From: Candidatus Yonathbacteria bacterium
GTDB taxonomy: Bacteria; Patescibacteriota; Minisyncoccia; Phycocordibacterales; UBA1550
Direction: 5' to 3'
Length of the DNA: 64,000 bases
Assembly: GCA_003483855.1 (NCBI GenBank)
Contig: DMXP01000006.1
Location: 24,280 to 88,279, forward strand
Shown: in pieces, positions 22,211 to 49,181 of the stretch
Position numbering within the stretch: position 1 is the stretch's first letter
How the letters are laid out: every line of letters begins with the position of its first letter
Translations under genes and position numbers: made by a program
Notes under the pieces: generated by a model
Told to the model about the DNA's origin: nothing
Databases searched by the model: none
The model's input: only the letters and a program-made list of their open reading frames with translations

Positions 22211-22879
22211 CTACTCGCGATATTCTTTCAATAGCCAAGAACTCGACTGTACTTTCCCCCCACCGACATTAAAGACCATTTCTACGCCAAGCTCTTTACA
22301 TATTTTTGCCTCTGGAATATCCGCTTCCGCTTTTCGATCACCACCATTTGCAAACACTTGTGGACGAATCTTTTCAATTGCCTCTCCCACATCATTGCGG
22401 TCACTTTCTAAAATGAAAACATCGTCAACACAACTAAATCCTCGTATAATCCCAGCACGTTCTTCTTGATTCATAAAATTCTTTCCTTTCTTGCGAATTA
22501 ACCACTTGTCACAATTAAGCACAACGACCAATTTGTCGCCAAGATTCTTTGCTTCCTCAAACATTTGAAGATGACCAATATGAACAGGGTCAAAGCCTCC
22601 ACTCACCATCACTACACGCTTTGCTGTCTCGCGACCGTAGTCGTCTTCGTAGCGAATAATGTCGTTCTCTTGTGGTTTACCATAAACAAACTCTAGGTAA
22701 GCGCCAGGCAGTAGTCGATGTTTTTGCATCGGTTCTACTTTATAAAAACCAAAATGCCATTCTGTGCGCTGGCTGTGCGACTGAAGGCTAGTGCGTCCGC
22801 GGACAAGGATAAACTTGAGCCATGTATGTTTAGTGTTGAAAAGCTTCCACATCGCCCCCCATGGTCTTACTATTTTCAT
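22211..22879 (-). CDS. Cupin domain fused to a cytidylyl/adenylyltransferase domain (RfaE domain II / TagD-like)
   Basis: N-terminal RPWG..W......KF..V..G..SLQSHSQRTE (cupin). C-terminal VMVSGGFDPVHIGHLQMFEEAK (HxGH nucleotidyltransferase). Confidence 0.6.
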   Translation of the reverse strand: MKIVRPWGAMWKLFNTKHTWLKFILVRGRTSLQSHSQRTEWHFGFYKVEPMQKHRLLPGAYLEFVYGKPQENDIIRYEDDYGRETAKRVVMVSGGFDPVHIGHLQMFEEAKNLGDKLVVVLNCDKWLIRKKGKNFMNQEERAGIIRGFSCVDDVFILESDRNDVGEAIEKIRPQVFANGGDRKAEADIPEAKICKELGVEMVFNVGGGKVQSSSWLLKEYRE

Positions 22880-22940
22880 AAAAAATACTATACCACAAAG
22901 ACTATTGCCTAACTACTCAACAAAACCGAAATAATGTAAT

Positions 22941-24035
22941 ATGCTTATACATATGAAAAAAGCGCTTATAACAGGCATCACTGGGCAAGACGGTTCGTAC
23001 CTTGCCGAGCTCCTCCTTGAAAAAGGATACGAGGTACACGGGATAATTCGTCGCGCAAGCAGTTTTAACACGGGAAGAATCGATCACATTTATCAAGACC
23101 CGCACGAATCTGGCAAACGCCTTTTTTTGCACTATGGAGACCTCACAGATTCCACCAATCTCATCCGCATCATCAAAGAGGTTCAGCCCGACGAGATTTA
23201 CAACCTTGCGGCACAAAGCCACGTAAAAGTATCTTTCGAGGTCCCTGAATATACAGGGAACTCCGATGCGCTCGGCACGCTTCGCATCCTTGAGGCTATC
23301 CGCCTTCTTGGGCTTGAGAAAAAGACAAAATTCTACCAAGCTTCAACCTCAGAAATGTTTGGAGCAACTCCACCACCGCAAAGCGAGGACACTCCATTTT
23401 ACCCTCGTAGCCCCTATGGCGCGGCGAAAGTGTACGCATACTGGATAACAAAGAACTACCGCGAGGCTTATGGCATTTTTGCAGTATCGGGAATTCTTTT
23501 CAATCACGAATCCCCTCGCCGCGGAGAGACATTCGTAACAAGGAAAATTACGCGCGCGGCCACAAGAATCTCACTCGGATTACAGGAAAAATTATTCCTT
23601 GGGAACCTTAATGCAAAAAGAGACTGGGGACATGCAAAGGACTATGTGAATGCAATGTACCTTATGTTACAGCATCCTGAACCTGAGGATTTTGTTATTG
23701 CGACTGGTGAACAATATTCCGTACGCGCATTTTGTAATGCTGTTTTCAAAGAACTAGGAATTGAGCTCAAATGGAAAGGAGAAGGGGCTAGCGAAATTGG
23801 AACTGACAATGCTACAGGAAAGACAATTATAGAAATTGACCCACGTTATTTCCGACCCACAGAAGTTGAATCGCTCCTTGGTGACCCTTCAAAGGCACAG
23901 GAAAAACTTGGATGGAAAGCGGAGGTTGGTTTCGAGGGACTCGTAAAAGAGATGGTTGCGACAGACCTTGAGGAAGCAAAGAAGGATGTCCATCTCGCGA
24001 AAGGTGGGTTCAAAATCCAGAAGCACTACGAATAA
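22941..24035 (+). CDS. gmd: GDP-mannose 4,6-dehydratase
   Basis: [44 protein letters not shown]...; 364 aa. Confidence 0.9.
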
Positions 24036-24055
24036 AAGACGAGGTCTCTTCCCTT

Positions 24056-24511
24056 ATGAATCATATCCCCGCCGAGCTTTACCAAAAAATACACGCGGTA
24101 CTCCCTATTGTTTGTGCCGATATTGTGTTGGTAAAAAATAATTCTTTTCTGCTTGCAAAACGAAACAACAAACCCGCGCAAGGACAATGGTTTTTCCCAG
24201 GTGGAAGAATATTGAAAGGCGAGAGACTCGAGGATGCAATAAGGAGAAAGATCCACGAAGAGCTGGGAATAGTGGCAAATGTTGAAAAAATCCTTGGTGT
24301 AGATGACACAATTTTCCCCGATGGGCCATTTGATAGCCCTACCCACACCGTAAATATTGTTTTTCTTGTAAGTCTCGAAAACCAAAATGATGTTATTTCA
24401 CTCGACACCCAAAACGAAGAATATCAGTGGTATACTCACATAGACGATGTATGGCATCCATACGTGAAAAAGTTTCTCGCGCTTGCAGGATTTGAGAAGC
24501 AATATAATTAA
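24056..24511 (+). CDS. gmm: NUDIX hydrolase, GDP-mannose mannosyl hydrolase-like
   Basis: Nudix box GGRILKGERLEDAIRRKIHEELG, positioned between gmd and fcl. Confidence 0.7.
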   Translation: MNHIPAELYQKIHAVLPIVCADIVLVKNNSFLLAKRNNKPAQGQWFFPGGRILKGERLEDAIRRKIHEELGIVANVEKILGVDDTIFPDGPFDSPTHTVNIVFLVSLENQNDVISLDTQNEEYQWYTHIDDVWHPYVKKFLALAGFEKQYN

Positions 24512-24522: not shown

Positions 24523-25455
24523 ATGAAAAAAGATTCTAAAATATTTGTTGCAGGACATCGTGGACTCGTCGGGTCTGCTATTGCGCGAGCGCTTCAAAAC
24601 GACGGCTTTACAAATCTTGTCCTTAAAACACACCAGGAACTTGACCTCACGAATCAACAAGCGGTTGCTGATTTTTTTACAAAAGAAAAACCAGAGTTTG
24701 TTTTCCTTTCTGCGGCAAAAGTTGGCGGTATTATGGCAAACAAGACTTTCCCAGCAGATTTTATTTACAATAATCTCGCGATACAAGCAAACATTATCCA
24801 CAGCGCATACGTAAATAATGTAAAAAAATTACTATTTCTCGGAAGCTCATGCATCTATCCAAAGCTCTGTCCACAGCCCATAAAGGAGGAGTATCTGCTA
24901 TCTGGACCGCTTGAGGAATCAAATAAAGCCTACGCGGTAGCAAAAATCGCGGGAATCATTATGTGTCAATCATACAACGAGCAGTACGGCACCAATTTCA
25001 TCTCTCTAATGCCAACTAATCTATACGGACAAAATGACAATTTTGATCTTGAAAATTCTCATGTGCTTCCTGCAATGATTCGGAAATTCCATGAAGCAAA
25101 GGTTTCTCTAGCGCCAAGTGTTACTCTATGGGGCACTGGAAGCGCAATGCGCGAATTTCTGCACGTTGACGATCTTGCAGATGCAAGCCTCTTCTTGATG
25201 AAAAATTATAATGAGTCATCCATTGTAAACGTTGGTACAGGAGAAGACGTCACAATTAAGGAGCTTGCGGAAATGATTAGGAATATAGTGGGCTATTCAG
25301 GCGAGATTGTTTGGGACACAACCAAACCAGACGGAACCCCAAGGAAACTCCTAGATGTTAGCAAAATGAATTCTCTTGGATGGAAGCATAGAGTACCTCT
25401 CGACGAGGGCATAACATCTACATACAACTGGTTTAAGGAAAATTACAAACTCTAA
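24523..25455 (+). CDS. fcl: GDP-L-fucose synthase (GDP-4-keto-6-deoxymannose 3,5-epimerase/4-reductase)
   Basis: KIFVAGHRGLVGSAI...LFLGSSCIYPK...; 310 aa. Confidence 0.88.
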   Translation: MKKDSKIFVAGHRGLVGSAIARALQNDGFTNLVLKTHQELDLTNQQAVADFFTKEKPEFVFLSAAKVGGIMANKTFPADFIYNNLAIQANIIHSAYVNNVKKLLFLGSSCIYPKLCPQPIKEEYLLSGPLEESNKAYAVAKIAGIIMCQSYNEQYGTNFISLMPTNLYGQNDNFDLENSHVLPAMIRKFHEAKVSLAPSVTLWGTGSAMREFLHVDDLADASLFLMKNYNESSIVNVGTGEDVTIKELAEMIRNIVGYSGEIVWDTTKPDGTPRKLLDVSKMNSLGWKHRVPLDEGITSTYNWFKENYKL

Positions 25456-26312
25456 ATCCTTATCCACGTTTCAGGAACAATATTTGGATGAGGATCTGGT
25501 TCTTTTTTCACCCACTTCCTTGGCGCAATTACTATTTTTTTTGGATTTTTGTTAAGATAAGCGCCCCACCACGAAAAGGAAGAGTTTGCGATAATATGGT
25601 TAGAGCACGAGGACATGAGAAACAACTCTTCGTATTCTTTTAATCTTGAATTTGAAACATACTTAAAATCAGTGCGTTCGCCGAATTCTTTTTTAACCCA
25701 TAGAATATCATCAGAAAAAAAGTAAAATATTGGTAATTCAATTTTTGATTGCATCAGGTTAATGGCTTTTTCGTAATATTCTTTTGAACAAACCCCATGC
25801 GCGCTATTGGTTTTAGGATCATTCACATAGTCCCCTCTCCTAATATGCACGGAAACGCTCTTTGTTTTATCAATCTTGTTTTTCTCTGCCAAAAAAACCT
25901 CAGATTCTTTTTTTAAAGTAAACTCTTTTAGTGCCTTATCTTTTACCTCTATAAAATTTTTTTCAGATTGAAAATACCCTTCAATATACTTGTGGTTTTT
26001 CTTAAAAAAACTCGCATCATAATCTACATAATGCTTCTTCAAAACTCTCTGACTAAATGCTCTCAATAATTTTGAAAAAATACCAAACGGATTTCTTGCC
26101 TTTTCAACCTCGCTTATCGTCGCTATAGTCGCCGAAAGATTAAATGGGAACATTCTGTATTGTCTGGGCGTATTTGCGTTCACATAGCGCGGGTCATCAT
26201 ATCCTGTAATATCAAGTTTAAGTGCCTCCTTTTTTTGAGAAGCAACCGAAAATCCCGTTGCATACTGAAACATCTGATTTCCCAGCCCGCCTTTTAATTT
26301 AACAATAATCAT
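25452..26312 (-). CDS. GT11-family alpha-1,2-fucosyltransferase
   Basis: N-terminal ...KLKGGLGNQMFQYA... is the GT11 signature; 286 aa. Confidence 0.75.
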   Translation of the reverse strand: MIIVKLKGGLGNQMFQYATGFSVASQKKEALKLDITGYDDPRYVNANTPRQYRMFPFNLSATIATISEVEKARNPFGIFSKLLRAFSQRVLKKHYVDYDASFFKKNHKYIEGYFQSEKNFIEVKDKALKEFTLKKESEVFLAEKNKIDKTKSVSVHIRRGDYVNDPKTNSAHGVCSKEYYEKAINLMQSKIELPIFYFFSDDILWVKKEFGERTDFKYVSNSRLKEYEELFLMSSCSNHIIANSSFSWWGAYLNKNPKKIVIAPRKWVKKEPDPHPNIVPETWIRI

Positions 26313-26317: not shown

Positions 26318-27136
26318 CTATTTTTTAACAAATAAAGAGTCGCTCTTTATTCTTTCTAACACTACAATATTAAAGTCGGAAAGAAAATTCGCAATTTCAT
26401 CTTGGTTTTCTGTCTCAATCATAAGATGTGCTCCAGAAGAGAGCAATGAAAGCGTTGTTGTTGCTCCGAGAAGGACATCTTTTTCGTATCCTTCGGTGTC
26501 AATTTTAATAAAATCAATAGTCTGTGCAATTTCAGGAGTGATGCAACTATCGAGCGTTTTAACCTGGATTGTGGTGTGAGATTTTGTGCTACCTGCTATG
26601 GATGTATCTTGAATAGCCGCACCGCCAAGGTGTGCTGTATCGACATAAATTTCTGCGGACTCCTCACGAGCGCCAAGCGCAAATGACATTATTGAAACCT
26701 GCTTATCCAGTTCGTTGAGTGAAATATTTTTTATAAGTACATCAATCGTTTGAGGGAAGGGTTCAAATGCATATGCATGAGAATAGTTATAACTCAGAAG
26801 CCCAAGTATGGTGTATCTGCCACGATTAGCACCAATATCAATCAAAGTTCGCTTCTTTGGTGGTTTATCAAGCCAGTGCATAAGATGCGACTCAAAATAC
26901 TCAGAACAAATTGTCAGCGTGTCATCATGTGTACGAGGAATCATGAAAGTACCAACGGAATTCTTAATAATAAAATAAGACTTTTCACTCATAGTATCTA
27001 TCATGGTGCTATGAAAAACCCTTCGAAAAAACGTCCATAGTTTTACTCGCCAGTAAAAGAAGAAGAAGTCAATTCTAGAACCAGACACAACAGAAGTGTG
27101 TATGTAGTCTTTCAAGAGTATAAATATTTTCCTCAT
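26318..27136 (-). CDS. FkbM-family methyltransferase
   Basis: ...LIDIGANRGRYT...AFEPFPQT... Start moved to MRKIF, abutting the upstream gene; the ORF could extend to 27169. Confidence 0.65.
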   Translation of the reverse strand: MRKIFILLKDYIHTSVVSGSRIDFFFFYWRVKLWTFFRRVFHSTMIDTMSEKSYFIIKNSVGTFMIPRTHDDTLTICSEYFESHLMHWLDKPPKKRTLIDIGANRGRYTILGLLSYNYSHAYAFEPFPQTIDVLIKNISLNELDKQVSIMSFALGAREESAEIYVDTAHLGGAAIQDTSIAGSTKSHTTIQVKTLDSCITPEIAQTIDFIKIDTEGYEKDVLLGATTTLSLLSSGAHLMIETENQDEIANFLSDFNIVVLERIKSDSLFVKK

Positions 27137-27864
27137 ATATTTTCTTTTACAAATACAAAACAACCACATGCATACTTCTCATTCTCCAAAAGCTTCACGT
27201 CAGCGTCGCGTATAATTGCGCCTGAATGTTCGGGAATGAGTGTAAATTCTTTGAGTGTAAGATTGGGGAATAATTTTTTCACTGCCTCGTAGCTGTAAAT
27301 TCTGTGCGCATTGTATTCAATCATTGCCTCCTTGCCAATTGGAACCACAAAAAGAAGCAAGCCACTTTTTGCAAGTACTCGCGATAGTTCTTTCGCGGCT
27401 TTTATATCGCCATCAGGGTCAATAGGGTCGCCATATCGTCCAAGTCCGATATGCTCAACAACATGCATGCAGGAAAGAGAGTTGATAGAGCCGTCCTCAA
27501 AAGGAAGCCGCATTAAATCTGCCTGCTTGCTCTCTAAATTCGAAAGCACAATATCAGCAGGACGATAATCATAAAAATCCACAGGAACAAAAGCAGAGAC
27601 AATCCCAGCAAAATACAGTGACGAAGAAATATCAACATGTTTTTCTGGCTTAGTTTCTGCAAGAACCCTTGCTGCCCAGGATGTATGATAAACGTAGTGT
27701 CTATCAAATCCTGTCTTTATTGTCTTGTCTTTTACTTGTGGATAAAAGTCTGATATCGACAAACTAAATCGTGGATTTTTGTCTTGTTTATGAAACCTCA
27801 AAAAATCCACGAGTACAAATGGTATGAGCACAATACGTATTATTTTTTTTATAAGTGCTTTCAT
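27133..27864 (-). CDS. DUF268-family putative SAM-dependent methyltransferase (paralogue A)
   Basis: About 60% identical to the 34665-35435 product. Shared motifs include DFYDYRPA...LMRLPF...SCMHVVEHIGLGRYGD...NAHRIYSYE. Confidence 0.55.
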   Translation of the reverse strand: MKALIKKIIRIVLIPFVLVDFLRFHKQDKNPRFSLSISDFYPQVKDKTIKTGFDRHYVYHTSWAARVLAETKPEKHVDISSSLYFAGIVSAFVPVDFYDYRPADIVLSNLESKQADLMRLPFEDGSINSLSCMHVVEHIGLGRYGDPIDPDGDIKAAKELSRVLAKSGLLLFVVPIGKEAMIEYNAHRIYSYEAVKKLFPNLTLKEFTLIPEHSGAIIRDADVKLLENEKYACGCFVFVKENI

Positions 27865-32984: not shown

Positions 32985-32990
32985 CTGGTG

Positions 32991-33761: not shown

Positions 33762-33765
33762 TACC

Positions 33766-38365: not shown

Positions 38366-38368
38366 AAT

Positions 38369-39514: not shown

Positions 39515-39524
39515 ACACCGTTAC

Positions 39525-40923: not shown

Positions 40924-40941
40924 TATTGTGACATTTTATCA

Positions 40942-43919: not shown

Positions 43920-44021
43920 TTTAAGTTGATGGCCACCACCATTTCGTCAAAGTAAGCATTAAATGAGAATTTAATAATTAGCCGATAAATACTTGTCCTA
44001 ACATATTTAATGTTGACAATT

Positions 44022-45572
44022 TTACTTTTCGCGCGCGATTGGAATTAATTTAACCCTTTTAAATAAAAGTTCCATGAATCGTTCTATATCTGCCCAATCC
44101 TGGGGCTCAAAAAAACCAAATAATTTATACAATGCTATATAAGTCAGTGCAGAAGTACCCCCCGCAATAAGCAGTGTTGTTAAACTAACAATGAAGTTAG
44201 CTATAAATAAGTTGAGGATTAACATTACAAAAGCAACGATAATATTATTCGTGATTATTTTTTTATAATAGCTTCTTCGGTTAGACAGGTTTAAATAACG
44301 AGTTTCAACATAAAAAAACAAATATGCTACTGGTAACACTGATATGAAATACGCCCAAGCGGCTCCCACTATTCCGTAAAGAGGCAACAGCGTAAAAAGT
44401 GCTATAGCATTAAGAATAGCCATGCACACAGAAGCAATAGATAAAAATTTTAATTTGCCGAGACCTAAAAGAAAGTTTGACAATGGCCCAAAAAGAGCGA
44501 GAATAAAATTAGTTAAAGCCAAAATAATAAGAACGCCTGATGCCCTGTCTGCAAAATCTGAACTAAGCCAATATTTCAAGATCTCATAAGAAAATGATAT
44601 CGACGTTATCGTTAGAGCTCCAGCAATTATTATCATCAGTCTAAAAGTTCTTATGTACATTGTTTTCATTCTAGATATTTCGTCTCCTCCGCTTAATTGT
44701 GACGTAGTTGGGAGCATGCTTACGGTCAAGGTATTAGTGATGCCGGGGATTTTTGCGGTTACGTTTCCAGGCATACTATAGTACGTAAGATTACTAGGGC
44801 CAACAAAAAACGGAATTACAATTTTATCAAGAGACGAGAGGGCCGTAGTTGCTATATTATTTACATATGCAATTAGTCCAAATCGGTAACAATTTATTAT
44901 TTCTTTTTTGTTCCATCCGAACTTAAAGGTTGCAATCGGTAAAAGTTTTCTCGCCTGCTGGAAAATAATTATTGAAAATACTGCTGCTACTATTAATTGC
45001 ACAATAAATATCTCGCGTATAGACCCGCCCATCTTAACCACAAACAGCATACCTAGACTAGAAAGCGTGATTGAAGTCATTCCTATCTTGTTGCTTATAT
45101 CAAAACGCTGAATGGCCGATAATATTAAGCTATATGTTGCGGTTATTATGTTAAAAAATAATATTCCACCAGCAAGTATAAACAATTTAAAATATTTCTC
45201 GTAGGCTAAAAAAGATGCCGGCAAGAAAGACGGGCCAAACAAGCCAATCATTACAGAAATAATTAAACTAAGTAGCCCAAGAATAAGGAACAGTGAGTTA
45301 GCAGAATGTGTTAGCCGCTTTATTGCTTCCTCATCTTTTTTGCCATAATAGTATGACATATACTTAAGGACTGCGACCCCAAGGCCAAGCTCAAAAAGTC
45401 CGAACAACCCTGCCGATGTGTTTATAAATAAATAAATACCATATTCTTTTACACCGAGGGTAAGGACAATTATTGGCGTTATAAAGAGAGTAAAAACGAT
45501 AGGCCAAAGATACCCCATTATGTTGTACGAACTATTTTTGAATGCTTTATATGTAAGTGAATCTTTTTCCAT
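44022..45572 (-). CDS. wzx: Wzx-type oligosaccharide flippase (MOP superfamily)
   Basis: 516 aa, about 12-14 TM helices, in polysaccharide-cluster context. Confidence 0.6.
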   Translation of the reverse strand: MEKDSLTYKAFKNSSYNIMGYLWPIVFTLFITPIIVLTLGVKEYGIYLFINTSAGLFGLFELGLGVAVLKYMSYYYGKKDEEAIKRLTHSANSLFLILGLLSLIISVMIGLFGPSFLPASFLAYEKYFKLFILAGGILFFNIITATYSLILSAIQRFDISNKIGMTSITLSSLGMLFVVKMGGSIREIFIVQLIVAAVFSIIIFQQARKLLPIATFKFGWNKKEIINCYRFGLIAYVNNIATTALSSLDKIVIPFFVGPSNLTYYSMPGNVTAKIPGITNTLTVSMLPTTSQLSGGDEISRMKTMYIRTFRLMIIIAGALTITSISFSYEILKYWLSSDFADRASGVLIILALTNFILALFGPLSNFLLGLGKLKFLSIASVCMAILNAIALFTLLPLYGIVGAAWAYFISVLPVAYLFFYVETRYLNLSNRRSYYKKIITNNIIVAFVMLILNLFIANFIVSLTTLLIAGGTSALTYIALYKLFGFFEPQDWADIERFMELLFKRVKLIPIAREK

Positions 45573-45662
45573 TTTTGAAAGTATACCATGTCATTAAACT
45601 TGAGGCATCGGCTTGAACAGGCTCCATGAAACCAAAAGAAATGCTAGAATACGGAGAACATC

Positions 45663-46430
45663 ATGAAATTTAGCATAATTACCCCAACATACAAACGACG
45701 GGACTTAATAGACCGAACCATTCAGTCAGTACTACACCAATCCTACATTGACTGGGAAATGATTATCGTAAATGATTCCCCAGATGATTCTTCGTACCAG
45801 ACGCTTCCATCTTCTCTTACTGATCCCAGAATTCACTACTATGTGAATGATGTAAACTGTGGCGTGAACTATTCGCGAAACCGTGCACTCGGTAACATTG
45901 CGAAAGATTCAGACTGGGTTATTTTTTTGGATGATGATGATTATCTCGCGCCTGATGCACTCGCAACCTTACACGAGCTCGCTATCGCGCACCCTGATTG
46001 CAAGTGGTTTGTCACCAATCGCGCATACGCAAATGAAGTGCCTGTCACAAGATATCCTGAACCGGAAACATGGTATTCGTACATAAAAGACGTTCTCATT
46101 TTAAAGCGGTGCAGAGGTGATGTAACACACTGTATAAAAACGAGCCTTCTCACCAATATTCGATATTCAAAATACATCAAGCAAGCCGAGGAATGGTTAT
46201 TTTACTATCAAATTGCTCTTCGTGAAAAAATGTTTTATCACAACCATAACAGCACACTCACCGATGGATATGATGAGGTCTCTGGGCTTAACTTCCGCAA
46301 ACGCACACATGCCGAGCAAATCGAAACACTTCGTGCGTTTATTCGCGAAGGCCACGAGCTATGCCTACTTCACCACCCAACATTTCTTATTTATTTGGGA
46401 ATGAGGATACTCCGAATTATTTTGAAATAA
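45663..46430 (+). CDS. Family-2 glycosyltransferase
   Basis: FSIITPTYKRRDLIDRTIQSVLHQSY...IIVNDSPDD...; 255 aa. Confidence 0.75.
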   Translation: MKFSIITPTYKRRDLIDRTIQSVLHQSYIDWEMIIVNDSPDDSSYQTLPSSLTDPRIHYYVNDVNCGVNYSRNRALGNIAKDSDWVIFLDDDDYLAPDALATLHELAIAHPDCKWFVTNRAYANEVPVTRYPEPETWYSYIKDVLILKRCRGDVTHCIKTSLLTNIRYSKYIKQAEEWLFYYQIALREKMFYHNHNSTLTDGYDEVSGLNFRKRTHAEQIETLRAFIREGHELCLLHHPTFLIYLGMRILRIILK

Positions 46431-46475: not shown

Positions 46476-47420
46476 CTACCGGTAGGTCTCGGATTCAATG
46501 CACTCTATGAGCCCTTGGTCGAGGGTGAAATTAGGACGCCACCCTAATTCCCTTAACCTAGAGTCATCGATAGACTGATCCTTACTTTCTTGGAAAAAAC
46601 CAAGTTTTTCAACTATTTCAATACCTCCATCGTAACCCATTAATGAACAAATTTTTTCTACCAGGCTATTTATGGAAATAGCTCCAGAGCCACCGATACA
46701 AAAAATCTCGCCGTTCTTAGCTTTTTCCTCAATGAGCAAAATGGCATCAATTAGGTCATCCACATAAACAAATTCCCTTATAGCATCTTTAACGCTGGAA
46801 TACACCTGTGGCCTTTCACCGTTGTTAACAGACCTAATCGTTGTTGGTATAACTCTGCTAATATTTGAATCATTCGGGCCATACAAATTGGGACATCGAA
46901 TAATATTTATTGGCAGATTGTAACTTGAAAAATAATTCTGAGCAACGATATCCTGACAAGCCTTAGTGCACTCGTATGTATACTTAGGTTTAAGAAGGGT
47001 CTCCTCAGTGTATGGTGATGGAGTATCTCCATACACTTTGGAAGACGTTGATACAATGATTTTTCTAACAGTCTCCATCCCCACTGTTCGAACCGCCTCC
47101 AAAAGATTAACAGTGCCCATCACATTGTTCATGTAAGCACGCACAGGCTCATCAAAACATTCCTTAAGGATGGAGTTGGATGCGAAATGATAAATAGTAT
47201 TAATCTCATGTACACTTATAATTTCACACAGAGAATCATAATCATTCAAATCCCCCTTTATTGCAACAACATTATCTGCTCCGTAGGAACGTATCGGCTT
47301 GTTGTGATGATACAACAAAACAATTTTGCCATCCTTAGTATCATCAAGCTTCAGCAATCGAGAGGTTAAACTTAACCCCATAAATCCGGCTGCGCCAGTT
47401 ATTAATATGTTGTTTTTCAT
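46476..47420 (-). CDS. NAD-dependent epimerase/dehydratase (extended SDR)
   Basis: ILITGAAGFMG Rossmann motif and ...YGPN...; 314 aa. Confidence 0.75.
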   Translation of the reverse strand: MKNNILITGAAGFMGLSLTSRLLKLDDTKDGKIVLLYHHNKPIRSYGADNVVAIKGDLNDYDSLCEIISVHEINTIYHFASNSILKECFDEPVRAYMNNVMGTVNLLEAVRTVGMETVRKIIVSTSSKVYGDTPSPYTEETLLKPKYTYECTKACQDIVAQNYFSSYNLPINIIRCPNLYGPNDSNISRVIPTTIRSVNNGERPQVYSSVKDAIREFVYVDDLIDAILLIEEKAKNGEIFCIGGSGAISINSLVEKICSLMGYDGGIEIVEKLGFFQESKDQSIDDSRLRELGWRPNFTLDQGLIECIESETYR

Positions 47421-47568
47421 TTTGTTTAACCCCTTTCAATTAAATAGCCTCGGTAAAATGTAGTCAGATTGGCAAAATTCAGCCCCATTACACATATGTG
47501 AGAAATTGCTCATATTCTCAATTCCTGCCTTAATATACATTATTTTTGAATAATAGTAAGATGTACAG

Positions 47569-48294
47569 ATGAAAGGAATTATTTTAGCAGGAGGGGCAGG
47601 AAAAAGACTGAGCCCCCTTACTCGGGTAACATCAAAACAGCTTTTACCTATCTACAACCGGCCGATGATCTATTACCCGCTTAATACACTCATTAAGGCT
47701 GGTATTAAAGAAATTTTAATTATTATCGCGCCCGAAAAGGCGGGTGAATTTTTGAATCTCCTTGGATCAGGAAAGGACTTTGGTGTAAAATTCACGTATG
47801 AAATTCAGGACAAGCCGAGGGGGCTCCCTGAGGCATTTATTATTGGGGAAAATTTTTTAGACAACGATGACGTGGTTATGATTTTAGGAGACAACATCTT
47901 TGAAAAAGATTTATCAGAAGATATTCGTTCATTCAAAAGCGGAGGTCGCGTTTTTGCGGTTGAGGTTGAAGACCCGGAACGCTCAGGAGTTGTTGAGTTT
48001 GATAAAAATATGAAGGTTCTTTCAATAGAGGAGAAACCTGAACATCCAAAAAGCAATTTTATTATTCCAGGGCTTTTTATTTACGATTCACGCGTTATTC
48101 AGTTCGCAAAAGAACTTGAACCGAGCAGGCGTGGGGAGCTTGAAATAACTGATATTCATAAAAAATATCTAGAACTAGGAGAACTTGACGTTAAAAAATT
48201 CTCGGGTGAATGGATTGACGCGGGAACGTTTGACTCACTCCTAAGGGCTAATCAGTTAGCTCAGGAGAAGTTGCACAAGAATTTGGTTATATAA
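47569..48294 (+). CDS. Glucose-1-phosphate nucleotidyltransferase (RmlA/RfbF-like, short form)
   Basis: MKGIILAGGAGKRLSPLT...QLLPIYNRPMIYYPL; 241 aa. Confidence 0.75.
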   Translation: MKGIILAGGAGKRLSPLTRVTSKQLLPIYNRPMIYYPLNTLIKAGIKEILIIIAPEKAGEFLNLLGSGKDFGVKFTYEIQDKPRGLPEAFIIGENFLDNDDVVMILGDNIFEKDLSEDIRSFKSGGRVFAVEVEDPERSGVVEFDKNMKVLSIEEKPEHPKSNFIIPGLFIYDSRVIQFAKELEPSRRGELEITDIHKKYLELGELDVKKFSGEWIDAGTFDSLLRANQLAQEKLHKNLVI

Positions 48295-48305
48295 AATCAA
48301 AACCA

Positions 48306-49181
48306 CTAAACAGCGGGAACAAATTCTCTAATATGGTCAACAATCTTTTTCTCCGCCTTCCATCCTAATTCACTTTTTGCCCGAGTCACGTCCACTGAGG
48401 AGCCCATTCGGTTCCCTTTGCGTTCAGGGAGCATTCTTATTTCTCCACCAAAGGCTTTTGCAATATCTATAATACTGTATCCATCCTCAGCACCGAGACC
48501 GAAGTCGTCACCTTCGCCATTTTCTCCAACTAAAATAAGCCCACTCACGATATCGTCGACGTGAGTAAAATTGCGCACCTGTGTGCCTGGTGCTACAACT
48601 GTGAGTGGTTCACCTTTTTTAAACTTCTCTTTAAAGAGCGCAATTAGTGTTGCGTATTGTCCTGTAGAAATTTCTCTCGGCCCATATACATTATAAAAAT
48701 AAGTTATGGCGTACGGTAATCCAAACCATACTCCATAATTTTGAACCAGGTCGGTGTTATTTGCTTTGGTCCATGCATAAGGGCTCTGATCTCTGCCGAG
48801 CCCTCCGTCGCCAAACTTGGTACTTGAGCCAGCGTAAACAATTTTTATTTTGTGCTTTCTACAAAACTCAAGTACAGTGAATGTTCCTGCTACGTTGGAT
48901 TCCCAAACTATAGGCAGATCAGCAAAACTTTGCTCTACGCGAGAATATTCACCGAGGTGATACACAAGATCAGGAATAAAATTGATTAGTTTCGCAATGT
49001 CCTTTGTGTGTCCCTCGATATACGTCGCACCAGGAATATGATTTTCTTTTGTGCCAGTGAAATAATTGTCTAGAGAATGCACATCATATCGCCCTTCTTG
49101 CACCAAGCGCTCAATAAGGTTGGACCCTATGAACCCAGCGCCACCGGTTACTAAGACTTTCTTTTTAGCTGTTTCTGCCAT
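48306..49181 (-). CDS. NAD-dependent epimerase/dehydratase, UDP-glucuronate decarboxylase (UXS)-like
   Basis: VLVTGGAGFIGSNL...LDNYFTG...; 291 aa. Confidence 0.7.
   Translation of the reverse strand: MAETAKKKVLVTGGAGFIGSNLIERLVQEGRYDVHSLDNYFTGTKENHIPGATYIEGHTKDIAKLINFIPDLVYHLGEYSRVEQSFADLPIVWESNVAGTFTVLEFCRKHKIKIVYAGSSTKFGDGGLGRDQSPYAWTKANNTDLVQNYGVWFGLPYAITYFYNVYGPREISTGQYATLIALFKEKFKKGEPLTVVAPGTQVRNFTHVDDIVSGLILVGENGEGDDFGLGAEDGYSIIDIAKAFGGEIRMLPERKGNRMGSSVDVTRAKSELGWKAEKKIVDHIREFVPAV

What the first reader, a model, noticed from the sequence alone, without database searches (positions are those of the whole stretch)
22211..49181. ~27-kb surface-glycan island with an unusual enzyme repertoire suggesting a branched, methylated, possibly higher-carbon sugar
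Beyond an ordinary GDP-fucose branch (gmd, gmm, fcl, GT11 fucosyltransferase), the cluster has several atypical components. It has a stand-alone TPP-dependent E1 alpha/beta pair with an MDR dehydrogenase and a PfkB kinase. It has two sugar C-methyltransferase-like enzymes (one with an N-terminal Zn ribbon), two DUF268 paralogues and an FkbM methyltransferase. It has a GatZ/KbaZ-like protein and a fused nucleotidyltransferase-kinase. It has a shikimate-dehydrogenase-family oxidoreductase and a KdsC-like phosphatase. It also has a cupin-cytidylyltransferase and a GT9-like gene. E1 alpha/beta-like pairs without E2/E3 have been implicated in attaching two-carbon branches to deoxysugars in some antibiotic pathways. 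GatZ-family proteins include ketose-6-phosphate 4-epimerases. Taken together this looks like a pathway to an uncommon nucleotide-activated sugar rather than a standard O-antigen set. Genes are packed with 4-nt overlaps into very long operons.
Basis: partly seen in the sequence, partly recalled or inferred. Interest (0 to 1): 0.65.

Follow-up and report, generated by a model that had tools for sequence, protein, structure and literature searches.

The report
Mosaic glycan locus with two uncharacterised sugar cassettes
A tiny-celled candidate-phyla-radiation (CPR, Patescibacteria) bacterium carries a surface-sugar gene island built from two ordinary and two uncharacterised sugar-activation modules, and one of the uncharacterised modules recurs in many CPR bacteria, small DPANN archaea and other phyla, so it probably makes an unidentified rare sugar.

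Summary
The gene calls are real. The window comes from a Patescibacteria contig whose closest relative is a Yonathbacteria genome bin.

The island is not one pathway. It is a mosaic of four modules:
1. A bona fide GDP-L-fucose set (gmd and fcl pass equivalog cut-offs, plus GT11).
2. An RmlA-like transferase with two SDRs.
3. Cassette A: a KdsC-like HAD phosphatase, an AroE-like reductase, a fused nucleotidyltransferase/APH-like kinase ('NTK'), a GatZ-like protein and a PMI-like cupin, often with a C-methyltransferase.
4. Cassette B: a cupin-cytidylyltransferase, a short PfkB kinase, E1 alpha/beta, an MDR dehydrogenase and an orphan 404-aa protein.

Cassette A recurs in 80 loci across CPR, DPANN and many other phyla. 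The AroE-like gene and an SDR are mutually exclusive there, and cupin-NTK and NTK-GatZ fusions exist. Its logic matches the phage UDP-arabinose route (isomerase, bifunctional kinase/pyrophosphorylase AfhE, HAD phosphatase AfhF). I infer a phosphomutase-independent route from a ketose phosphate to a rare NDP-sugar.

Cassette B has no E2/E3. It is linked to HldE-like, GmhA-like and 4,6-dehydratase genes, which fits a branched sugar. The products of both cassettes remain unknown.

The parts
19464..21419 (-). Wzy_C (O-antigen ligase/polymerase-like) membrane protein fused to TPR repeats. It lies outside the stated coordinates but is probably part of the same glycan locus.
   Evidence: Pfam PF04932 2.1e-20 plus TPR families
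22211..22879 (-). Cassette B: a truncated PMI-type cupin (aa 1-80) fused to a cytidylyl/adenylyltransferase related to RfaE/HldE domain II.
   Evidence: PF01467 1.8e-14; TIGR02199 rfaE_dom_II 81.5 bits (cut-off 181.5). The cupin motif RPWG..SLQSHSQRTEWH aligns with cassette cupins. Separate CTase and cupin genes sit beside MDR-E1ab-PfkB in L106/L114/L115/L117/L118.
22941..24035 (+). GDP-mannose 4,6-dehydratase (gmd)
   Evidence: TIGR01472 598.9 bits > cut-off 415; PF16363 5e-157
24056..24511 (+). NUDIX hydrolase, GDP-mannose mannosyl hydrolase-like (weak)
   Evidence: PF00293 3.7e-19; NF011963 71 bits < cut-off 146
24523..25455 (+). GDP-L-fucose synthase (fcl)
   Evidence: NF047922 503.8 bits > cut-off 500
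25452..26312 (-). GT11 family (alpha-1,2-fucosyltransferase-type) glycosyltransferase
   Evidence: PF01531 4.6e-35
26318..27169 (-). FkbM-family methyltransferase
   Evidence: PF05050 1.5e-16; TIGR01444 88.6 bits > 37.7
27133..27864 (-). DUF268-type methyltransferase (paralogue 1)
   Evidence: PF03269 1.9e-15
27908..28648 (-). Cassette B: short (246 aa) PfkB-family kinase, closest to HldE/RfaE domain I. It lacks about the first 90 residues of the family.
   Evidence: PF00294 2.2e-17; TIGR02198 97.7 bits (cut-off 345), profile positions 92-306 only. Follows E1 beta in 15-21 related loci.
28645..29736 (-). Cassette B: ThDP-dependent E1 beta subunit. The likely true start is 29685, giving 346 aa as called on the source contig.
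   Evidence: PF02779 + PF02780; NF006667 248.6 bits < cut-off 321
29678..30631 (-). Cassette B: ThDP-dependent E1 alpha subunit without E2/E3 partners
   Evidence: PF00676 7e-68; TIGR03182 300.8 bits < cut-off 393.85. 65-91% identical homologues occur throughout Patescibacteria.
30636..31670 (-). Cassette B: Zn-type medium-chain dehydrogenase/reductase
   Evidence: PF08240 + PF00107. Directly upstream of E1 alpha in 26 of 80 related loci.
31770..32984 (+). Cassette B companion: orphan two-domain protein. The conserved N-domain (~237 aa) has unknown fold assignment. The C-domain is weakly methyltransferase-like.
   Evidence: No Pfam/NCBIfam hit. 310 homologues, those with a source name all Patescibacteria; the N-domain occurs alone or fused to GT2 or HAD. 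Model pLDDT 87, Foldseek TM <= 0.26 to class I methyltransferases. Next to MDR-E1ab in 14-15 loci.
32991..33761 (-). Methyltransferase with an N-terminal CxxC...CxxC zinc ribbon
   Evidence: PF13489 1.4e-13; sequence
33766..34662 (-). Unannotated 298-aa protein
   Evidence: No family hit at E<=1
34665..35435 (-). DUF268-type methyltransferase (paralogue 2)
   Evidence: PF03269 5.1e-15
35423..36580 (-). GT2 glycosyltransferase
   Evidence: PF00535 7.2e-35
36588..37481 (-). Unannotated 297-aa protein (weak RXYLT1_C-like, possible glycosyltransferase)
   Evidence: PF24785 3.1e-4, below cut-off. 72-73% identical copies follow the cassette in L006 and L010.
37478..38365 (-). Unannotated 295-aa protein, a recurrent neighbour of cassette A
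   Evidence: No family hit. Found beside the cassette in 8-9 of 80 loci.
38369..39514 (-). Sugar C-methyltransferase-like enzyme (TylC3/KijD1 type, without the zinc ribbon)
   Evidence: PF13489 + PF08484 5.4e-7. Neighbour of cassette A in 24 of 80 loci.
39525..39917 (-). Cassette A: PMI-type cupin, inferred metal-dependent aldose-ketose isomerase
   Evidence: PF07883, PF01050 5.3e-9. Invariant S40, H44, E49, H88, D108, R111 in 25 family members. Present in 74 of 80 loci. Cupin-NTK fusions P0369, P0376, P0378, P0408, P0445.
39904..40923 (-). Cassette A: GatZ/KbaZ-like class II aldolase-fold protein, inferred ketose-phosphate C4 epimerase (or aldolase)
   Evidence: PF08013 29.2 > 26.7. Family profile against E. 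coli GatZ 2fiq 2.4e-10, aligning RDHcGP, EIGTDE and KEHNADY to the GatZ Asp87/His88, Glu171 and His257 regions. In 73 of 80 loci. NTK-GatZl fusion P0362.
40942..42537 (-). Cassette A: 'NTK', an N-terminal sugar-1-phosphate nucleotidyltransferase fused to a C-terminal APH/choline-kinase-fold kinase
   Evidence: PF12804; LicC 1jyk 1.5e-5. Model pLDDT 84; Foldseek gives RmlA/GalU/MurU at E~1e-11. Kinase motif; PF01636 above cut-off in the L072 homologue. hhalign to RB69 gp53/gp52 gives 4e-5 and 1.7e-4. 820 50%-identity clusters at E<=1e-30.
42534..43376 (-). Cassette A: shikimate-dehydrogenase-family oxidoreductase of the SdhL (HI0607) type
   Evidence: TIGR00507 213.8 > 200.2. Best PDB match 1npy at 1.5e-48. 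Catalytic K (SMPHK) and D (NTD) are kept, but the AroE HSxSP motif reads GNFGS. In 45-46 of 80 loci and never together with the alternative SDR.
43377..43919 (-). Cassette A: cap-less HAD phosphatase of the KdsC (YrbI) type
   Evidence: TIGR01670 78.1 bits (cut-off 107). In 66 of 80 loci. Invariant DxDG motif.
44022..45572 (-). MOP/MATE-superfamily flippase (Wzx-like)
   Evidence: PF01554 1.5e-10; NF007773 MOP flippase 2.2e-4
45663..46430 (+). GT2 glycosyltransferase
   Evidence: PF00535 1.2e-23
46476..47420 (-). Extended SDR, NDP-hexose 4,6-dehydratase-like
   Evidence: PF16363 4.2e-50; TIGR01181 167.5 bits < cut-off 365
47569..48294 (+). RmlA-like glucose-1-phosphate nucleotidyltransferase (short form)
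   Evidence: PF00483 1.9e-62; TIGR01207 304 bits < cut-off 361
48306..49181 (-). Extended SDR (epimerase/reductase type)
   Evidence: PF01370 2.1e-43
51809..52765 (-). GT4 glycosyltransferase. It lies outside the stated coordinates, separated from the island by an ATPase gene and a Fic gene.
   Evidence: PF00534 4e-32

Best explanation
The region is the variable cell-surface glycan locus of a Patescibacteria (CPR) bacterium. It is assembled from four separable nucleotide-sugar modules plus methyltransferases, glycosyltransferases and a flippase.

Two modules are ordinary: GDP-L-fucose (gmd/gmm/fcl with a GT11 transferase), and an RmlA-like transferase with two SDRs. Two are uncharacterised cassettes.

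Cassette A (43919 to 39525, with the C-methyltransferase at 39514-38369) is a self-contained module that has been widely exchanged between lineages. I infer that it turns a ketose phosphate from central metabolism, most simply fructose-6-phosphate, into a rare NDP-aldose without a phosphomutase. The proposed steps are:
1. The GatZ-like metal enzyme inverts C4, or builds the ketose by aldol chemistry.
2. The PMI-like cupin isomerises the ketose phosphate to an aldose phosphate.
3. The kinase half of the fused protein (NTK) phosphorylates C1.
4. The KdsC-like HAD removes the distal phosphate.
5. The nucleotidyltransferase half of NTK makes the NDP-sugar.
6. An obligatory NAD(P)-dependent step, done by an AroE-like enzyme or in other genomes by an SDR, changes one carbonyl or hydroxyl. 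Its position in the pathway is unknown.
7. The C-methyltransferase then methylates, and the neighbouring glycosyltransferases and the flippase use the product.

Cassette B (cupin-cytidylyltransferase, short PfkB kinase, E1 alpha/beta, MDR, orphan 404-aa protein) combines an HldE-like kinase/nucleotidyltransferase pair with an E2-less ThDP enzyme and an adjacent reductase. I infer that the E1 pair adds a pyruvate-derived two-carbon unit to a keto-sugar nucleotide and that the MDR reduces it to a hydroxyethyl branch.

What is shown: the gene families, cassette conservation, the mutual exclusion of the two reductases, the fusions, and the absence of E2/E3. What is inferred: the substrates, the order of steps and the products.
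For: Host: the source contig is JGI Ga0103682_10000103. The closest locus is a Yonathbacteria genome bin, with 84-94% identity across SDR, RmlA-like, HAD, AroE-like, NTK, GatZ-like, cupin and C-MT genes. Named E1 homologues are Patescibacteria.

Cassette A conservation. Among 80 genome loci found through NTK:
- cupin in 74, the GatZ-like gene in 73, HAD in 66 and the AroE-like gene in 46;
- there are two stable gene orders;
- AroE-like (45 loci) and an adh_short SDR (22 loci) never co-occur.

Fusions: NTK-GatZl, cupin-NTK (five proteins) and NTK-GT2.

Family size: about 820 clusters at 50% identity with E<=1e-30, with the full-length architecture in most of the 150 listed.

Catalytic plausibility:
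- The GatZ-like family keeps D81-H82, the EIGTDE motif and H220. These align with the GatZ Asp87/His88, Glu171 and His257 regions. GatZ is an F6P-to-T6P C4 epimerase (PMC11907403).
- The cupin keeps the Q/H-x-H...E...H ligand pattern and matches the PMI C-terminal domain.
- The NTK N-domain folds like the sugar-1-P nucleotidyltransferases RmlA, GalU and MurU.
- The SDH family includes a sugar keto-reductase, 7cok.

Precedent for the logic: the phage UDP-arabinose route uses an isomerase, the bifunctional AfhE (N-terminal pyrophosphorylase, C-terminal kinase; A5P to Ara-1,5-P2, then Ara-1-P to UDP-Ara) and the HAD phosphatase AfhF (PMC13326640). RB69 gp53/gp52 align weakly to NTK, including the motif D-x-R-x-x-F-G...Y-D-x-A-K.

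Cassette B:
- MDR-E1a-E1b-PfkB recurs in CPR loci (MDR in 26, PfkB in 15-21, the orphan protein in 14-15).
- Distant versions read SDR, 4,6-dehydratase-like SDR, SIS (GmhA-like), E1a, E1b, a fused CTase+PfkB, and MDR.
- There is no E2/E3.
- E2-less E1 pairs attach a two-carbon branch from pyruvate at C4 of NDP-4-keto sugars (Plm8/Plm9, AviB1/B2; PMC4802897). ThDP branching is followed by NAD(P)H reduction in the YerE/YerF system (PMC9306805).
- gmd in the same island supplies a 4-keto-6-deoxy sugar nucleotide.
Against: - No enzyme was assayed and no glycan structure is known for any carrier.
- The reductase has no assigned step in the AfhE-type scheme.
- The cassette HAD is KdsC-type and shows no specific similarity to phage AfhF-type HADs.
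- The hhalign matches to RB69 gp52/53 are weak (probability 50-70%).
- The window's GatZ-like protein matches Pfam only over 100 residues. Which acidic residue replaces GatZ Glu171 is ambiguous.
- GatZ chemistry could equally be an aldolase reaction.
- The NTK N-domain's best sequence hit is LicC, a phosphocholine cytidylyltransferase, so a non-sugar alcohol is not excluded.
- For cassette B, the PfkB lacks its N-terminal ~90 residues. The CTase scores far below the HldE cut-offs, and its C-terminus (FNVGGGKVQSSS) only loosely fits the (F/L)XXGXSTT motif.
- No GmhA or GmhB is present in the window.
- Similarity to Plm8/AviB1 could not be tested.
- Taxon labels of many genome bins are unreliable.
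Confidence: 0.55

Rival explanations
1. Cassette A makes a CDP-activated polyol or other alcohol phosphate, a teichoic-acid-like or phospho-alditol decoration, rather than an NDP-aldose. In this reading the GatZ-like enzyme and the reductase turn F6P into a hexitol phosphate (galactitol or altritol). The HAD frees the polyol, the APH/choline-kinase-like domain re-phosphorylates it, and the LicC-like domain makes the CDP-alcohol.
For: The best sequence match of the NTK N-domain is LicC, the CTP:phosphocholine cytidylyltransferase. Some sources name homologues 'choline kinase'. Choline_kinase Pfam hits are weak but present. This reading gives the obligatory reductase (AroE-like or SDR) a natural role. 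It also explains why both a phosphatase and a kinase are present.
Against: The PMI-like cupin, present in 74 of 80 loci and fused to NTK in five proteins, has no role. The N-domain fold and profile match the sugar-binding half of RmlA/GalU/MurU. The closest functional precedent for the same domain order, AfhE, acts on a sugar phosphate.
Confidence: 0.17
2. Cassette A builds a deoxy or rare sugar bottom-up, as the reverse of fucose/rhamnose-type catabolism followed by salvage-type activation. The reductase makes an aldehyde acceptor. The GatZ-like protein acts as a true aldolase joining it to DHAP. A phosphatase removes the 1-phosphate of the ketose. The cupin isomerises the free ketose to an aldose. 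NTK then acts like the bifunctional fucokinase/pyrophosphorylase Fkp (anomeric kinase followed by NTase).
For: Every conserved enzyme class gets exactly one step, including the reductase and both the phosphatase and the kinase. The GatZ-like family keeps the class II aldolase Asp-His and E-x-G-T motifs. An FBPase/IMPase-like phosphatase is an extra neighbour in 10 loci, 8 of them with the SDR version. Cupin isomerases of free sugars exist (D-lyxose isomerase 2y0o and L-ribose isomerase appear among the profile hits). That APH-fold kinases are often anomeric kinases of free sugars is established knowledge of NahK, AmgK and MTR kinase.
Against: GatZ and KbaZ themselves are epimerases that lack aldolase activity under the tested conditions (PMC11907403). 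The family's ligand pattern (His/Glu/His) is the GatZ pattern, not the three-His aldolase pattern. No precedent exists for an AroE-like enzyme making a small aldehyde.
Confidence: 0.13
3. Cassette A makes a nucleotide-activated cyclitol. Aldolase-fold and dehydrogenase enzymes form and reduce a carbocycle. A phosphatase, a kinase and an inositol-phosphate-cytidylyltransferase-like domain then activate it.
For: AroE-family enzymes normally act on cyclitol carboxylates. The NTK N-domain also resembles inositol-1-phosphate cytidylyltransferases (2xme at E 0.005; 4jd0 by Foldseek at 3.5e-9). IMPase-like genes and an IMPase-NTase fusion lie beside some cassettes. That APH-fold kinases phosphorylate aminocyclitols is established knowledge.
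Against: The AroE-like gene is replaceable by a FabG-like SDR. IMPase-like genes accompany the SDR version, not the AroE version. No cyclase homologue is present. The PMI-like cupin and the GatZ-type epimerase point to open-chain ketose chemistry.
Confidence: 0.06
4. In cassette B the E1 pair acts like a decarboxylating transketolase. It would build a longer ketose phosphate (for example a heptulose or a 1-deoxy-ketose) from a 2-oxo acid and an aldose phosphate. The cupin/SIS isomerase, the PfkB kinase and the cytidylyltransferase would then activate that product as in the NDP-heptose pathway. The MDR would adjust one centre.
For: The partners are those of the NDP-heptose pathway: an HldE-domain-I-like kinase, an HldE-domain-II-like transferase, a GmhA-like SIS gene in distant loci and a PMI-like cupin in CPR loci. 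E1 alpha gives weak DXP-synthase/transketolase Pfam hits. The isomerase-kinase-phosphatase-NTase logic is that of the heptose biosynthetic enzymes (PMC11461863).
Against: E1-type enzymes of this architecture are not known to make sugar phosphates. A 4,6-dehydratase-like SDR is the most frequent extra neighbour (23 loci), which fits a keto-sugar-nucleotide acceptor better. No GmhB-type phosphatase is present in the window.
Confidence: 0.15
5. The E1 alpha/beta pair and the MDR are ordinary acetoin/pyruvate catabolic enzymes (AcoA/AcoB plus butanediol dehydrogenase) that merely sit inside the glycan island.
For: The best family hits are PDH E1 subunits. Some sources name homologues 'acetoin:DCPIP oxidoreductase'. 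MDR butanediol dehydrogenases accompany aco operons (established knowledge).
Against: There is no E2, E3 or lipoyl protein in 64 kb or among conserved neighbours in 80 loci. Scores fall below the equivalog cut-offs. The pair is always embedded among sugar-nucleotide genes (PfkB, CTase, cupin/SIS, SDR dehydratases, aminotransferases, glycosyltransferases).
Confidence: 0.05

Closest known systems
Phage UDP-arabinose pathway for arabinosylated 5-hydroxycytosine DNA (arabinose-5-P isomerase, bifunctional AfhE / RB69 gp52:53 / DLP3 gp82, HAD phosphatase AfhF)
   Same: The logic and the domain order match. There is a sugar-phosphate isomerase, one polypeptide with an N-terminal MurU/LicC-like NDP-sugar pyrophosphorylase and a C-terminal APH/choline-kinase-fold kinase, and an adjacent HAD phosphatase. 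No phosphomutase is involved. Weak direct similarity to RB69 gp53/gp52 exists. HAD-NTK adjacency is also seen in Enterococcus phage 9183.
   Different: The isomerase is a cupin, not a SIS protein. The HAD is KdsC-type with no specific similarity to the phage HADs. The cassette adds a GatZ-like enzyme and an obligatory reductase. It sits in cellular glycan loci with flippases and glycosyltransferases. The sugar is unknown and probably not arabinose.
NDP-heptose pathways (GmhA, HldE or HddA/HddC, GmhB)
   Same: Both cassettes follow the isomerase-kinase-phosphatase-nucleotidyltransferase scheme. The kinase and transferase of cassette B are nearest to HldE domains I and II. Distant versions have a fused CTase+PfkB and a GmhA-like SIS gene.
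   Different: Scores are far below the HldE cut-offs and the PfkB is N-terminally truncated. A cupin replaces GmhA in CPR versions. There is no GmhB. E1ab and an MDR are added. No GT9 heptosyltransferase was detected.
GatZ/KbaZ fructose-6-phosphate/tagatose-6-phosphate C4 epimerases
   Same: Pfam membership is marginal. The profile matches E. coli GatZ, and the Asp-His, acidic and His ligand positions are conserved.
   Different: The proteins are about 340 aa instead of 420. The window protein is alignable with a known GatZ only over about 100 aa, and the family profile over about 210 positions. The role is anabolic, in a nucleotide-sugar cassette, not galactitol or GalNAc catabolism. The substrate is untested.
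E2-less E1 alpha/beta pairs of branched-sugar antibiotic pathways (Plm8/Plm9, AviB1/AviB2) and the YerE/YerF branching-reduction pair
   Same: A stand-alone E1ab sits in a sugar cluster with a 4,6-dehydratase available and a reductase directly adjacent.
   Different: The setting is a cell-surface locus of CPR bacteria, not an actinomycete antibiotic cluster. The partner reductase is an MDR. The pair is linked to HldE-like activation genes. Sequence relatedness to Plm8/AviB1 was not tested.
Bifunctional type II phosphomannose isomerase / GDP-mannose pyrophosphorylase (ManC/AlgA/XanB type)
   Same: A nucleotidyltransferase is combined with a PMI-type cupin, and is physically fused in some homologues (cupin-NTK, and cupin-CTase in the window).
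   Different: The domain order is reversed. A kinase and a phosphatase take the place of the phosphomannomutase step, and extra epimerase and reductase enzymes are present.
SdhL class of shikimate dehydrogenase homologues (H. influenzae HI0607) and 5-ketofructose reductase
   Same: The best solved relative is HI0607 (1.5e-48). The catalytic Lys/Asp pair is kept. 7cok shows that the family can reduce keto-sugars.
   Different: The N-terminal substrate motif differs from AroE (GNFGS against HSxSP). No shikimate-pathway genes lie nearby. The gene is interchangeable with an SDR.

Membership tests
GDP-L-fucose biosynthesis (Gmd, Fcl) with GT11 transferase | Gmd and Fcl reach the curated equivalog scores | tested here: met
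   TIGR01472 598.9 > 415; NF047922 503.8 > 500
GDP-L-fucose biosynthesis (Gmd, Fcl) with GT11 transferase | A family-11 glycosyltransferase adjacent | tested here: met
   PF01531 4.6e-35 at 25452-26312, overlapping the fcl stop by 4 nt
GatZ/KbaZ ketose-6-phosphate C4 epimerases | Pfam PF08013 at or above the gathering score | tested here: met
   29.2 against 26.7, but only profile positions 23-126 of 420. The L072 homologue scores 42.1 bits over positions 25-293.
GatZ/KbaZ ketose-6-phosphate C4 epimerases | Asp-His catalytic/ligand pair, an acidic ligand and a second His ligand (GatZ Asp87, His88, Glu171, His257) | tested here: met
   D81, H82, E146 and H220 are invariant and E151 nearly invariant in 35 sequences. 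The profile alignment to 2fiq places D81-H82 and H220 on the corresponding GatZ motifs. The acidic ligand is E146, D150 or E151; the register is ambiguous.
GatZ/KbaZ ketose-6-phosphate C4 epimerases | F6P to T6P epimerase activity | not testable with these tools
   Needs an enzyme assay
AfhE-type bifunctional sugar-phosphate 1-kinase / NDP-sugar pyrophosphorylase | One polypeptide with an N-terminal NDP-sugar pyrophosphorylase and a C-terminal APH/choline-kinase-fold kinase | tested here: met
   The architecture is kept in most of the 150 best representatives.
AfhE-type bifunctional sugar-phosphate 1-kinase / NDP-sugar pyrophosphorylase | Detectable sequence homology to a phage member (RB69 gp52:53) | tested here: inconclusive
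   hhalign E 4.2e-5 (prob. 70%, NTase) and 1.7e-4 (prob. 50%, kinase; 70 columns, 34% identity). tblastn at 1e-5 did not retrieve RB69.
AfhE-type bifunctional sugar-phosphate 1-kinase / NDP-sugar pyrophosphorylase | Adjacent HAD phosphatase and sugar-phosphate isomerase | tested here: met
   HAD in 66 of 80 loci and cupin in 74 of 80. Both are of different subfamilies from the phage proteins.
Shikimate dehydrogenase AroE | Curated AroE domain score | tested here: met
   TIGR00507 213.8 > 200.2. The full-length equivalog NF001319 scores 242.2 < 252.
Shikimate dehydrogenase AroE | N-terminal substrate-binding Ser-x-Ser motif (HSxSP) | tested here: not met
   The motif reads GNFGS and aligns to HSFSP of 1nvt. 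It resembles SNFGT of the SdhL protein HI0607.
Shikimate dehydrogenase AroE | Context of aromatic amino-acid biosynthesis | tested here: not met
   No shikimate-pathway gene in the window or among cassette neighbours. The gene is interchangeable with an SDR.
Pyruvate/acetoin dehydrogenase complex E1 | E1 alpha and beta reach the curated equivalog scores | tested here: not met
   300.8 < 393.85 and 248.6 < 321
Pyruvate/acetoin dehydrogenase complex E1 | E2 (lipoyl acyltransferase) and E3 encoded nearby | tested here: not met
   None in the 64-kb window and none among the 16 commonest neighbour families in 80 loci
Two-carbon branching E1 pairs (Plm8/9, AviB1/2) | E2-less E1ab inside a sugar cluster with a 4,6-dehydratase and a following reductase | tested here: met
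   gmd and an SDR dehydratase-like gene in the island. MDR is adjacent in 26 loci and SDR family f3 is present in 23 loci.
Two-carbon branching E1 pairs (Plm8/9, AviB1/2) | Closer sequence relationship to Plm8/AviB1 than to metabolic E1s | not tested
HldE / NDP-heptose biosynthetic enzymes | Kinase and nucleotidyltransferase reach the RfaE domain I/II scores | tested here: not met
   97.7 against 345 and 81.5 against 181.5. These are nevertheless the best-scoring families.
HldE / NDP-heptose biosynthetic enzymes | (F/L)XXGXSTT motif in the transferase | tested here: not met
   The C-terminus reads FNVGGGKVQSSS
HldE / NDP-heptose biosynthetic enzymes | GmhA isomerase and GmhB phosphatase partners | tested here: inconclusive
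   Both are absent from the window. A SIS_2 gene precedes E1ab in 6 loci, and a PMI-type cupin takes that place in CPR loci. One homologue of the orphan protein is fused to a HAD domain.
GT9 heptosyltransferase | Sequence or fold similarity of any ORF to GT9 | tested here: not met
   No PF01075 hit at E<=1 for the four unannotated ORFs or for 36 homologues of the 404-aa protein. The family profile against the PDB gave nothing. Foldseek found only weak methyltransferase hits.

The most novel reading that the evidence does not exclude
Cassette A defines a previously unrecognised, phosphomutase-independent de novo pathway to a rare, possibly C-methylated NDP-hexose of the tagatose-derived series or another C3/C4-epimeric series. 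It recruits a GatZ-type epimerase and a shikimate-dehydrogenase-type (or SDR) reductase into nucleotide-sugar synthesis. It has been exchanged between CPR bacteria, DPANN archaea, some viruses and many other phyla, so that unrelated ultra-small episymbionts display the same unusual surface sugar. Cassette B would in addition be the first E1-type two-carbon branching system in a cell-surface glycan rather than an antibiotic.
Probability: 0.35. Interest if true: 0.78.

Novelty: new variant of a known kind. Interest (0 to 1): 0.6.

Why it matters
CPR bacteria and DPANN archaea live attached to other cells, and almost nothing is known about their surface chemistry. A five-gene cassette is shared at about 55-60% protein identity between the two domains and is present in roughly 800 sequence clusters. 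That makes it a concrete, testable handle on a surface sugar that may matter for host attachment or phage evasion.

Biochemically, the cassette would show that the 'isomerase, 1-kinase, distal phosphatase, pyrophosphorylase' route is a general cellular strategy. So far this route is known for heptoses and recently for phage arabinose. It would also give GatZ-like and SdhL-type proteins, both long without clear physiological roles, an anabolic function. Cassette B would extend ThDP-dependent sugar branching from antibiotic pathways to surface glycans.

If the products turn out to be common sugars, the island is simply a diverse but ordinary glycan locus.

Tried and rejected
I used a profile-to-PDB alignment instead.
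- GT9 similarity was looked for in four ways and not found.
- The cassette HAD was compared with the phage HADs next to AfhE-like genes. Nothing matched beyond the DxD motif.
- Literature searches for the cassette in CPR/DPANN, or for GatZ combined with a nucleotidyltransferase, found no description.
- The plasmid collection gave only N-domain hits in Haloferax.
- No tRNA gene flanks the island, so there is no evidence of site-specific integration.
- I considered that 2.3-kb NTK matches in some archaeal loci meant an intein. They are a tandem stand-alone NTase paralogue followed by NTK.
- I considered that cassette A simply supplies GDP-mannose for the fucose branch. gmd and fcl accompany it in only 12-17 of 80 loci, and that idea leaves the GatZ-like enzyme and the reductase without a role.

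Full report
**Observation.** The region 22211-49181 contains 29 closely packed ORFs. About 98% of it is coding. Junctions range from a 37-nt overlap to a 148-nt gap, and four are 4-nt overlaps. A 13-gene minus-strand run spans 32991-45572.

- gmd (TIGR01472, 598.9 bits against a cut-off of 415) and fcl (NF047922, 503.8 against 500);
- a NUDIX protein, GT11, FkbM and two DUF268 proteins;
- E1 alpha and E1 beta, an MDR dehydrogenase and a short PfkB kinase;
- a GatZ_KbaZ-like protein;
- a 531-aa nucleotidyltransferase whose C-terminus carries the HGDLQFDN...IDW kinase signature;
- a shikimate-dehydrogenase-family protein (TIGR00507, 213.8 against 200.2);
- a KdsC-like HAD;
- a protein whose first 80 residues are a truncated PMI-type cupin fused to a cytidylyltransferase.

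Two corrections are needed. The C-methyltransferase C-terminal domain occurs only in the 381-aa protein, whereas the zinc ribbon is on the other, generic methyltransferase. No ORF shows any GT9 similarity.

**Origin.** The E1 alpha protein occurs on JGI metagenome contig Ga0103682_10000103 (86.9 kb), with the same gene order as the window. The nearest genome locus is a Candidatus Yonathbacteria genome bin. There the SDR, RmlA-like, HAD, AroE-like, NTK, GatZ-like, cupin and C-methyltransferase genes are 76-94% identical, while the flippase is only 40% identical. This is the usual pattern of a diversifying glycan locus.

The flanks carry SecA, MurB, GAPDH, GatB, Obg and a Mur ligase, so the region is chromosomal. 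The host is a CPR bacterium, and 'O-antigen' is therefore the wrong frame. G+C falls to 0.34-0.37 between 32 and 46 kb, against 0.42-0.46 in the flanks. The E1 block sits at about 0.44.

**The island is a mosaic.** Using the 531-aa fusion protein ('NTK') as a probe, 80 genome loci were recovered. tblastn with all 29 island proteins gave these counts:
- cupin in 74 loci, the GatZ-like gene in 73, HAD in 66 and the AroE-like gene in 46;
- E1 alpha, E1 beta and MDR in none.

Conversely, 80 metagenome loci recovered with E1 alpha carried E1 beta in 61, MDR in 26, PfkB in 15 and the 404-aa orphan protein in 14. None had NTK or the GatZ-like gene.

**Cassette A: HAD, AroE-like, NTK, GatZ-like, cupin, then a C-methyltransferase.** It occurs in two stable arrangements:
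- [AroE][HAD]-NTK-GatZl-cupin, in CPR and DPANN archaea, at 55-94% NTK identity;
- HAD-GatZl-(GT2-like)-cupin-NTK-AroE-[C-MT], at about 40% identity. This form is found in bins labelled Planctomycetota, Elusimicrobia, Verrucomicrobia, Bdellovibrionota, Legionella, SAR86, Pelagibacteraceae and Thaumarchaeota. Many such labels come from automated binning and should be treated with caution.

Clustering all neighbours showed that the AroE-like gene (45 loci) and an adh_short SDR (22 loci) never co-occur. The SDR usually lies between the GatZ-like gene and the cupin. Most of the 13 loci with neither are truncated. This is a classic non-orthologous displacement and marks a redox step as integral to the cassette.

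Gene fusions link the remaining parts: NTK-GatZl (P0362), cupin-NTK (P0369, P0376, P0378, P0408, P0445) and NTK-GT2 (P0379). An exhaustive profile search found about 820 clusters at 50% identity with E<=1e-30, and most of the 150 listed keep the full ~525-aa architecture.

**What the cassette A parts look like.**
- *GatZ-like protein.* A 35-sequence family alignment has invariant R80-D81-H82-G84, H112, D114, E146, K218, H220 and D223. Its profile aligns to E. coli GatZ (2fiq, 2.4e-10), placing RDHcGP on GGDHLGP, EIGTDE on IGTE and KEHNADY on EAHSTDY. These are the positions proposed for the catalytic Asp87 and the zinc ligands His88, Glu171 and His257 of GatZ. GatZ has been shown to epimerise fructose-6-P to tagatose-6-P (PMC11907403).
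- *Cupin.* It matches the C-terminal PMI domain of type II PMI/GMP enzymes. It keeps S40, H44, E49, H88, D108 and R111 in both cassettes.
- *NTK N-domain.* It folds like RmlA, GalU and MurU (model pLDDT 84; Foldseek E about 1e-11).
- *NTK C-domain.* It belongs to the APH/choline-kinase fold.
- *AroE-like protein.* It is nearest to the H. influenzae SdhL protein HI0607 (1.5e-48). It keeps the catalytic Lys and Asp, but its N-terminal substrate motif reads GNFGS rather than HSxSP. A solved family member is a 5-ketofructose reductase.
- *HAD.* It is of the cap-less KdsC type.

**Mechanism proposed for cassette A.** The closest known logic is the phage route to UDP-arabinose for arabinosylated 5-hydroxycytosine DNA. 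In that route an arabinose-5-P isomerase acts first. The bifunctional AfhE (N-terminal pyrophosphorylase, C-terminal kinase) phosphorylates C1. The HAD phosphatase AfhF removes the 5-phosphate. AfhE then forms the UDP-sugar (PMC13326640).

RB69 gp53 and gp52 align weakly to NTK (E 4e-5 and 1.7e-4). The kinase match extends beyond the generic Brenner motif into D-x-R-x-x-F-G...Y-D-x-A-K. NTK also has 24-34% identical full-length relatives in Enterococcus phages, next to a HAD gene and nucleotide-metabolism genes, and in a marine viral contig that carries cupin-NTK-GatZl.

I therefore infer this sequence: ketose phosphate, then (cupin) aldose phosphate, then (kinase) 1,n-bisphosphate, then (HAD) aldose-1-phosphate, then (NTase) NDP-sugar. 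The GatZ-like enzyme would set the C4 configuration upstream. F6P to T6P is the simplest case. The C-methyltransferase, glycosyltransferases and flippase act downstream.

The steps are inferred, and the reductase has no assigned position. Three alternatives give it a role: a CDP-polyol product, a bottom-up aldolase route, or a cyclitol product. They are listed as rivals.

**Cassette B.** In CPR loci the order is [orphan 404-aa][CTase][cupin]-MDR-E1a-E1b-PfkB. The window has the cupin remnant fused to the CTase. In more distant loci (about 42% E1a identity) the order is SDR, 4,6-dehydratase-like SDR, SIS (GmhA-like), E1a, E1b, a 509-aa CTase+PfkB fusion, and MDR.

The kinase and the transferase score best against HldE domains I and II, though far below the cut-offs. 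This fits the isomerase-kinase-(phosphatase)-nucleotidyltransferase scheme of NDP-heptose synthesis (PMC11461863).

No E2 or E3 is present in the window or among conserved neighbours. The E1 scores are below the PDH equivalog cut-offs.

E2-less E1 pairs add a pyruvate-derived two-carbon branch at C4 of NDP-4-keto sugars in paulomycin and avilamycin biosynthesis (PMC4802897). ThDP branching is followed by NAD(P)H reduction of the side chain in the YerE/YerF paradigm (PMC9306805). The constant MDR-E1a adjacency, the frequent dehydratase neighbours and the island's own Gmd make a hydroxyethyl-branched sugar the best guess. A transketolase-like chain-extension role is the main alternative.

The 404-aa companion is an orphan. 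It has 310 homologues, and every one that a source names is from Patescibacteria. Its N-domain is sometimes fused to GT2 or HAD, and it has no detectable family or fold match.

**Comparison and novelty.** Nothing here is a new kind of system; these are nucleotide-sugar cassettes in a glycan locus. The enzyme combinations, however, are not described in the literature I could search.

Cassette A recruits GatZ-type and SdhL-type proteins into an AfhE-like activation scheme, and it is shared across domains of life. I rate it a new variant of a known kind. The products are unknown, and all mechanistic steps beyond family assignment and co-occurrence are inference.

**Verdict.** Interest is 0.6.

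Noticed in passing
window 32000-46000 against the flanks: G+C drops to 0.34-0.37 across the cassette A operon, against 0.42-0.46 on both sides and about 0.44 over the E1 block. This suggests that the modules were acquired separately.
   Followed up: partly
window 18197-18841, 21434-22050, 49457-51795, 57187-58185: The island is bracketed by toxin/defence-type genes. These are an AbiEii nucleotidyltransferase toxin, a PemK toxin with a small overlapping upstream ORF, a DUF4143 AAA ATPase, an HTH-Fic protein and a RhuM-Fic protein.
   Followed up: no
window 53675-57173: A lamin-tail-domain + PKD surface protein lies next to a TrwB/TraG-like coupling ATPase. This pairing may belong to a surface or DNA-transfer apparatus.
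   Followed up: no
L166 (Enterococcus phage 9183, MT939241.1 28004-34535): A HAD hydrolase and a 544-aa NTK-like protein (24% identical over 94% of NTK) sit between thymidylate kinase, a thymidylate-synthase homologue and dUTPase on one side and a 'nucleotide sugar synthetase-like' gene and thymidine kinase on the other. The layout resembles phage DNA sugar-hypermodification clusters. The same protein occurs in phages TJE4 and Planchet.
   Followed up: partly
L168 (Marine virus AG-345-E15, MH319741.1) 11679-14411 and 17355-19196: An unannotated 'viral' single-cell contig carries cupin-NTK-GatZl (34% NTK identity) together with GT11, a second cupin and gmd/SDR-like genes. Either a virus carries cassette A or the contig is cellular.
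   Followed up: partly
P0477 (724 aa); L003 13035-13301 and L004 10341-10628: Homing-endonuclease-like sequences are associated with the cassette. By eye, the roughly 190-residue N-terminal extension of one NTK homologue (P0477) looks GIY-YIG-like; it was not scanned. Separate small GIY-YIG ORFs lie directly after the cupin in two Yanofskybacteria loci.
   Followed up: no
L010 and 17 other loci (family f8, e.g. L007 13034-13765): A stand-alone ~240-aa paralogue of the NTK nucleotidyltransferase domain accompanies the cassette in 18 of 80 loci. In the closest relative (L010) it sits between the AroE-like gene and NTK. It is absent from the window.
   Followed up: partly
L016, L020, L027, L030, L031, L035, L047, L058, L077; L019 8348-9874: An inositol-monophosphatase/FBPase-family gene (in L019 fused to a nucleotidyltransferase) is a neighbour of cassette A in 10 loci. 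Eight of these have the SDR version and one has the AroE version.
   Followed up: partly
window 9028-10032: A glyoxylate/hydroxypyruvate reductase-like 2-hydroxyacid dehydrogenase (NF009714, 340 bits, below its cut-off) lies 12 kb upstream of the island. It could in principle supply hydroxypyruvate to a ThDP enzyme, but it is not linked to cassette B in other loci.
   Followed up: no
L121, L123, L131, L135, L137, L144, L150, L162, L165: A third context for related E1 alpha/beta pairs (37-46% identity) was seen. They lie next to a DegT-type aminotransferase, a Bac_transf initiating transferase, a PglF-like Polysacc_synt_2 dehydratase and a methyltransferase. This places them in bacillosamine-like amino-sugar clusters.
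   Followed up: partly
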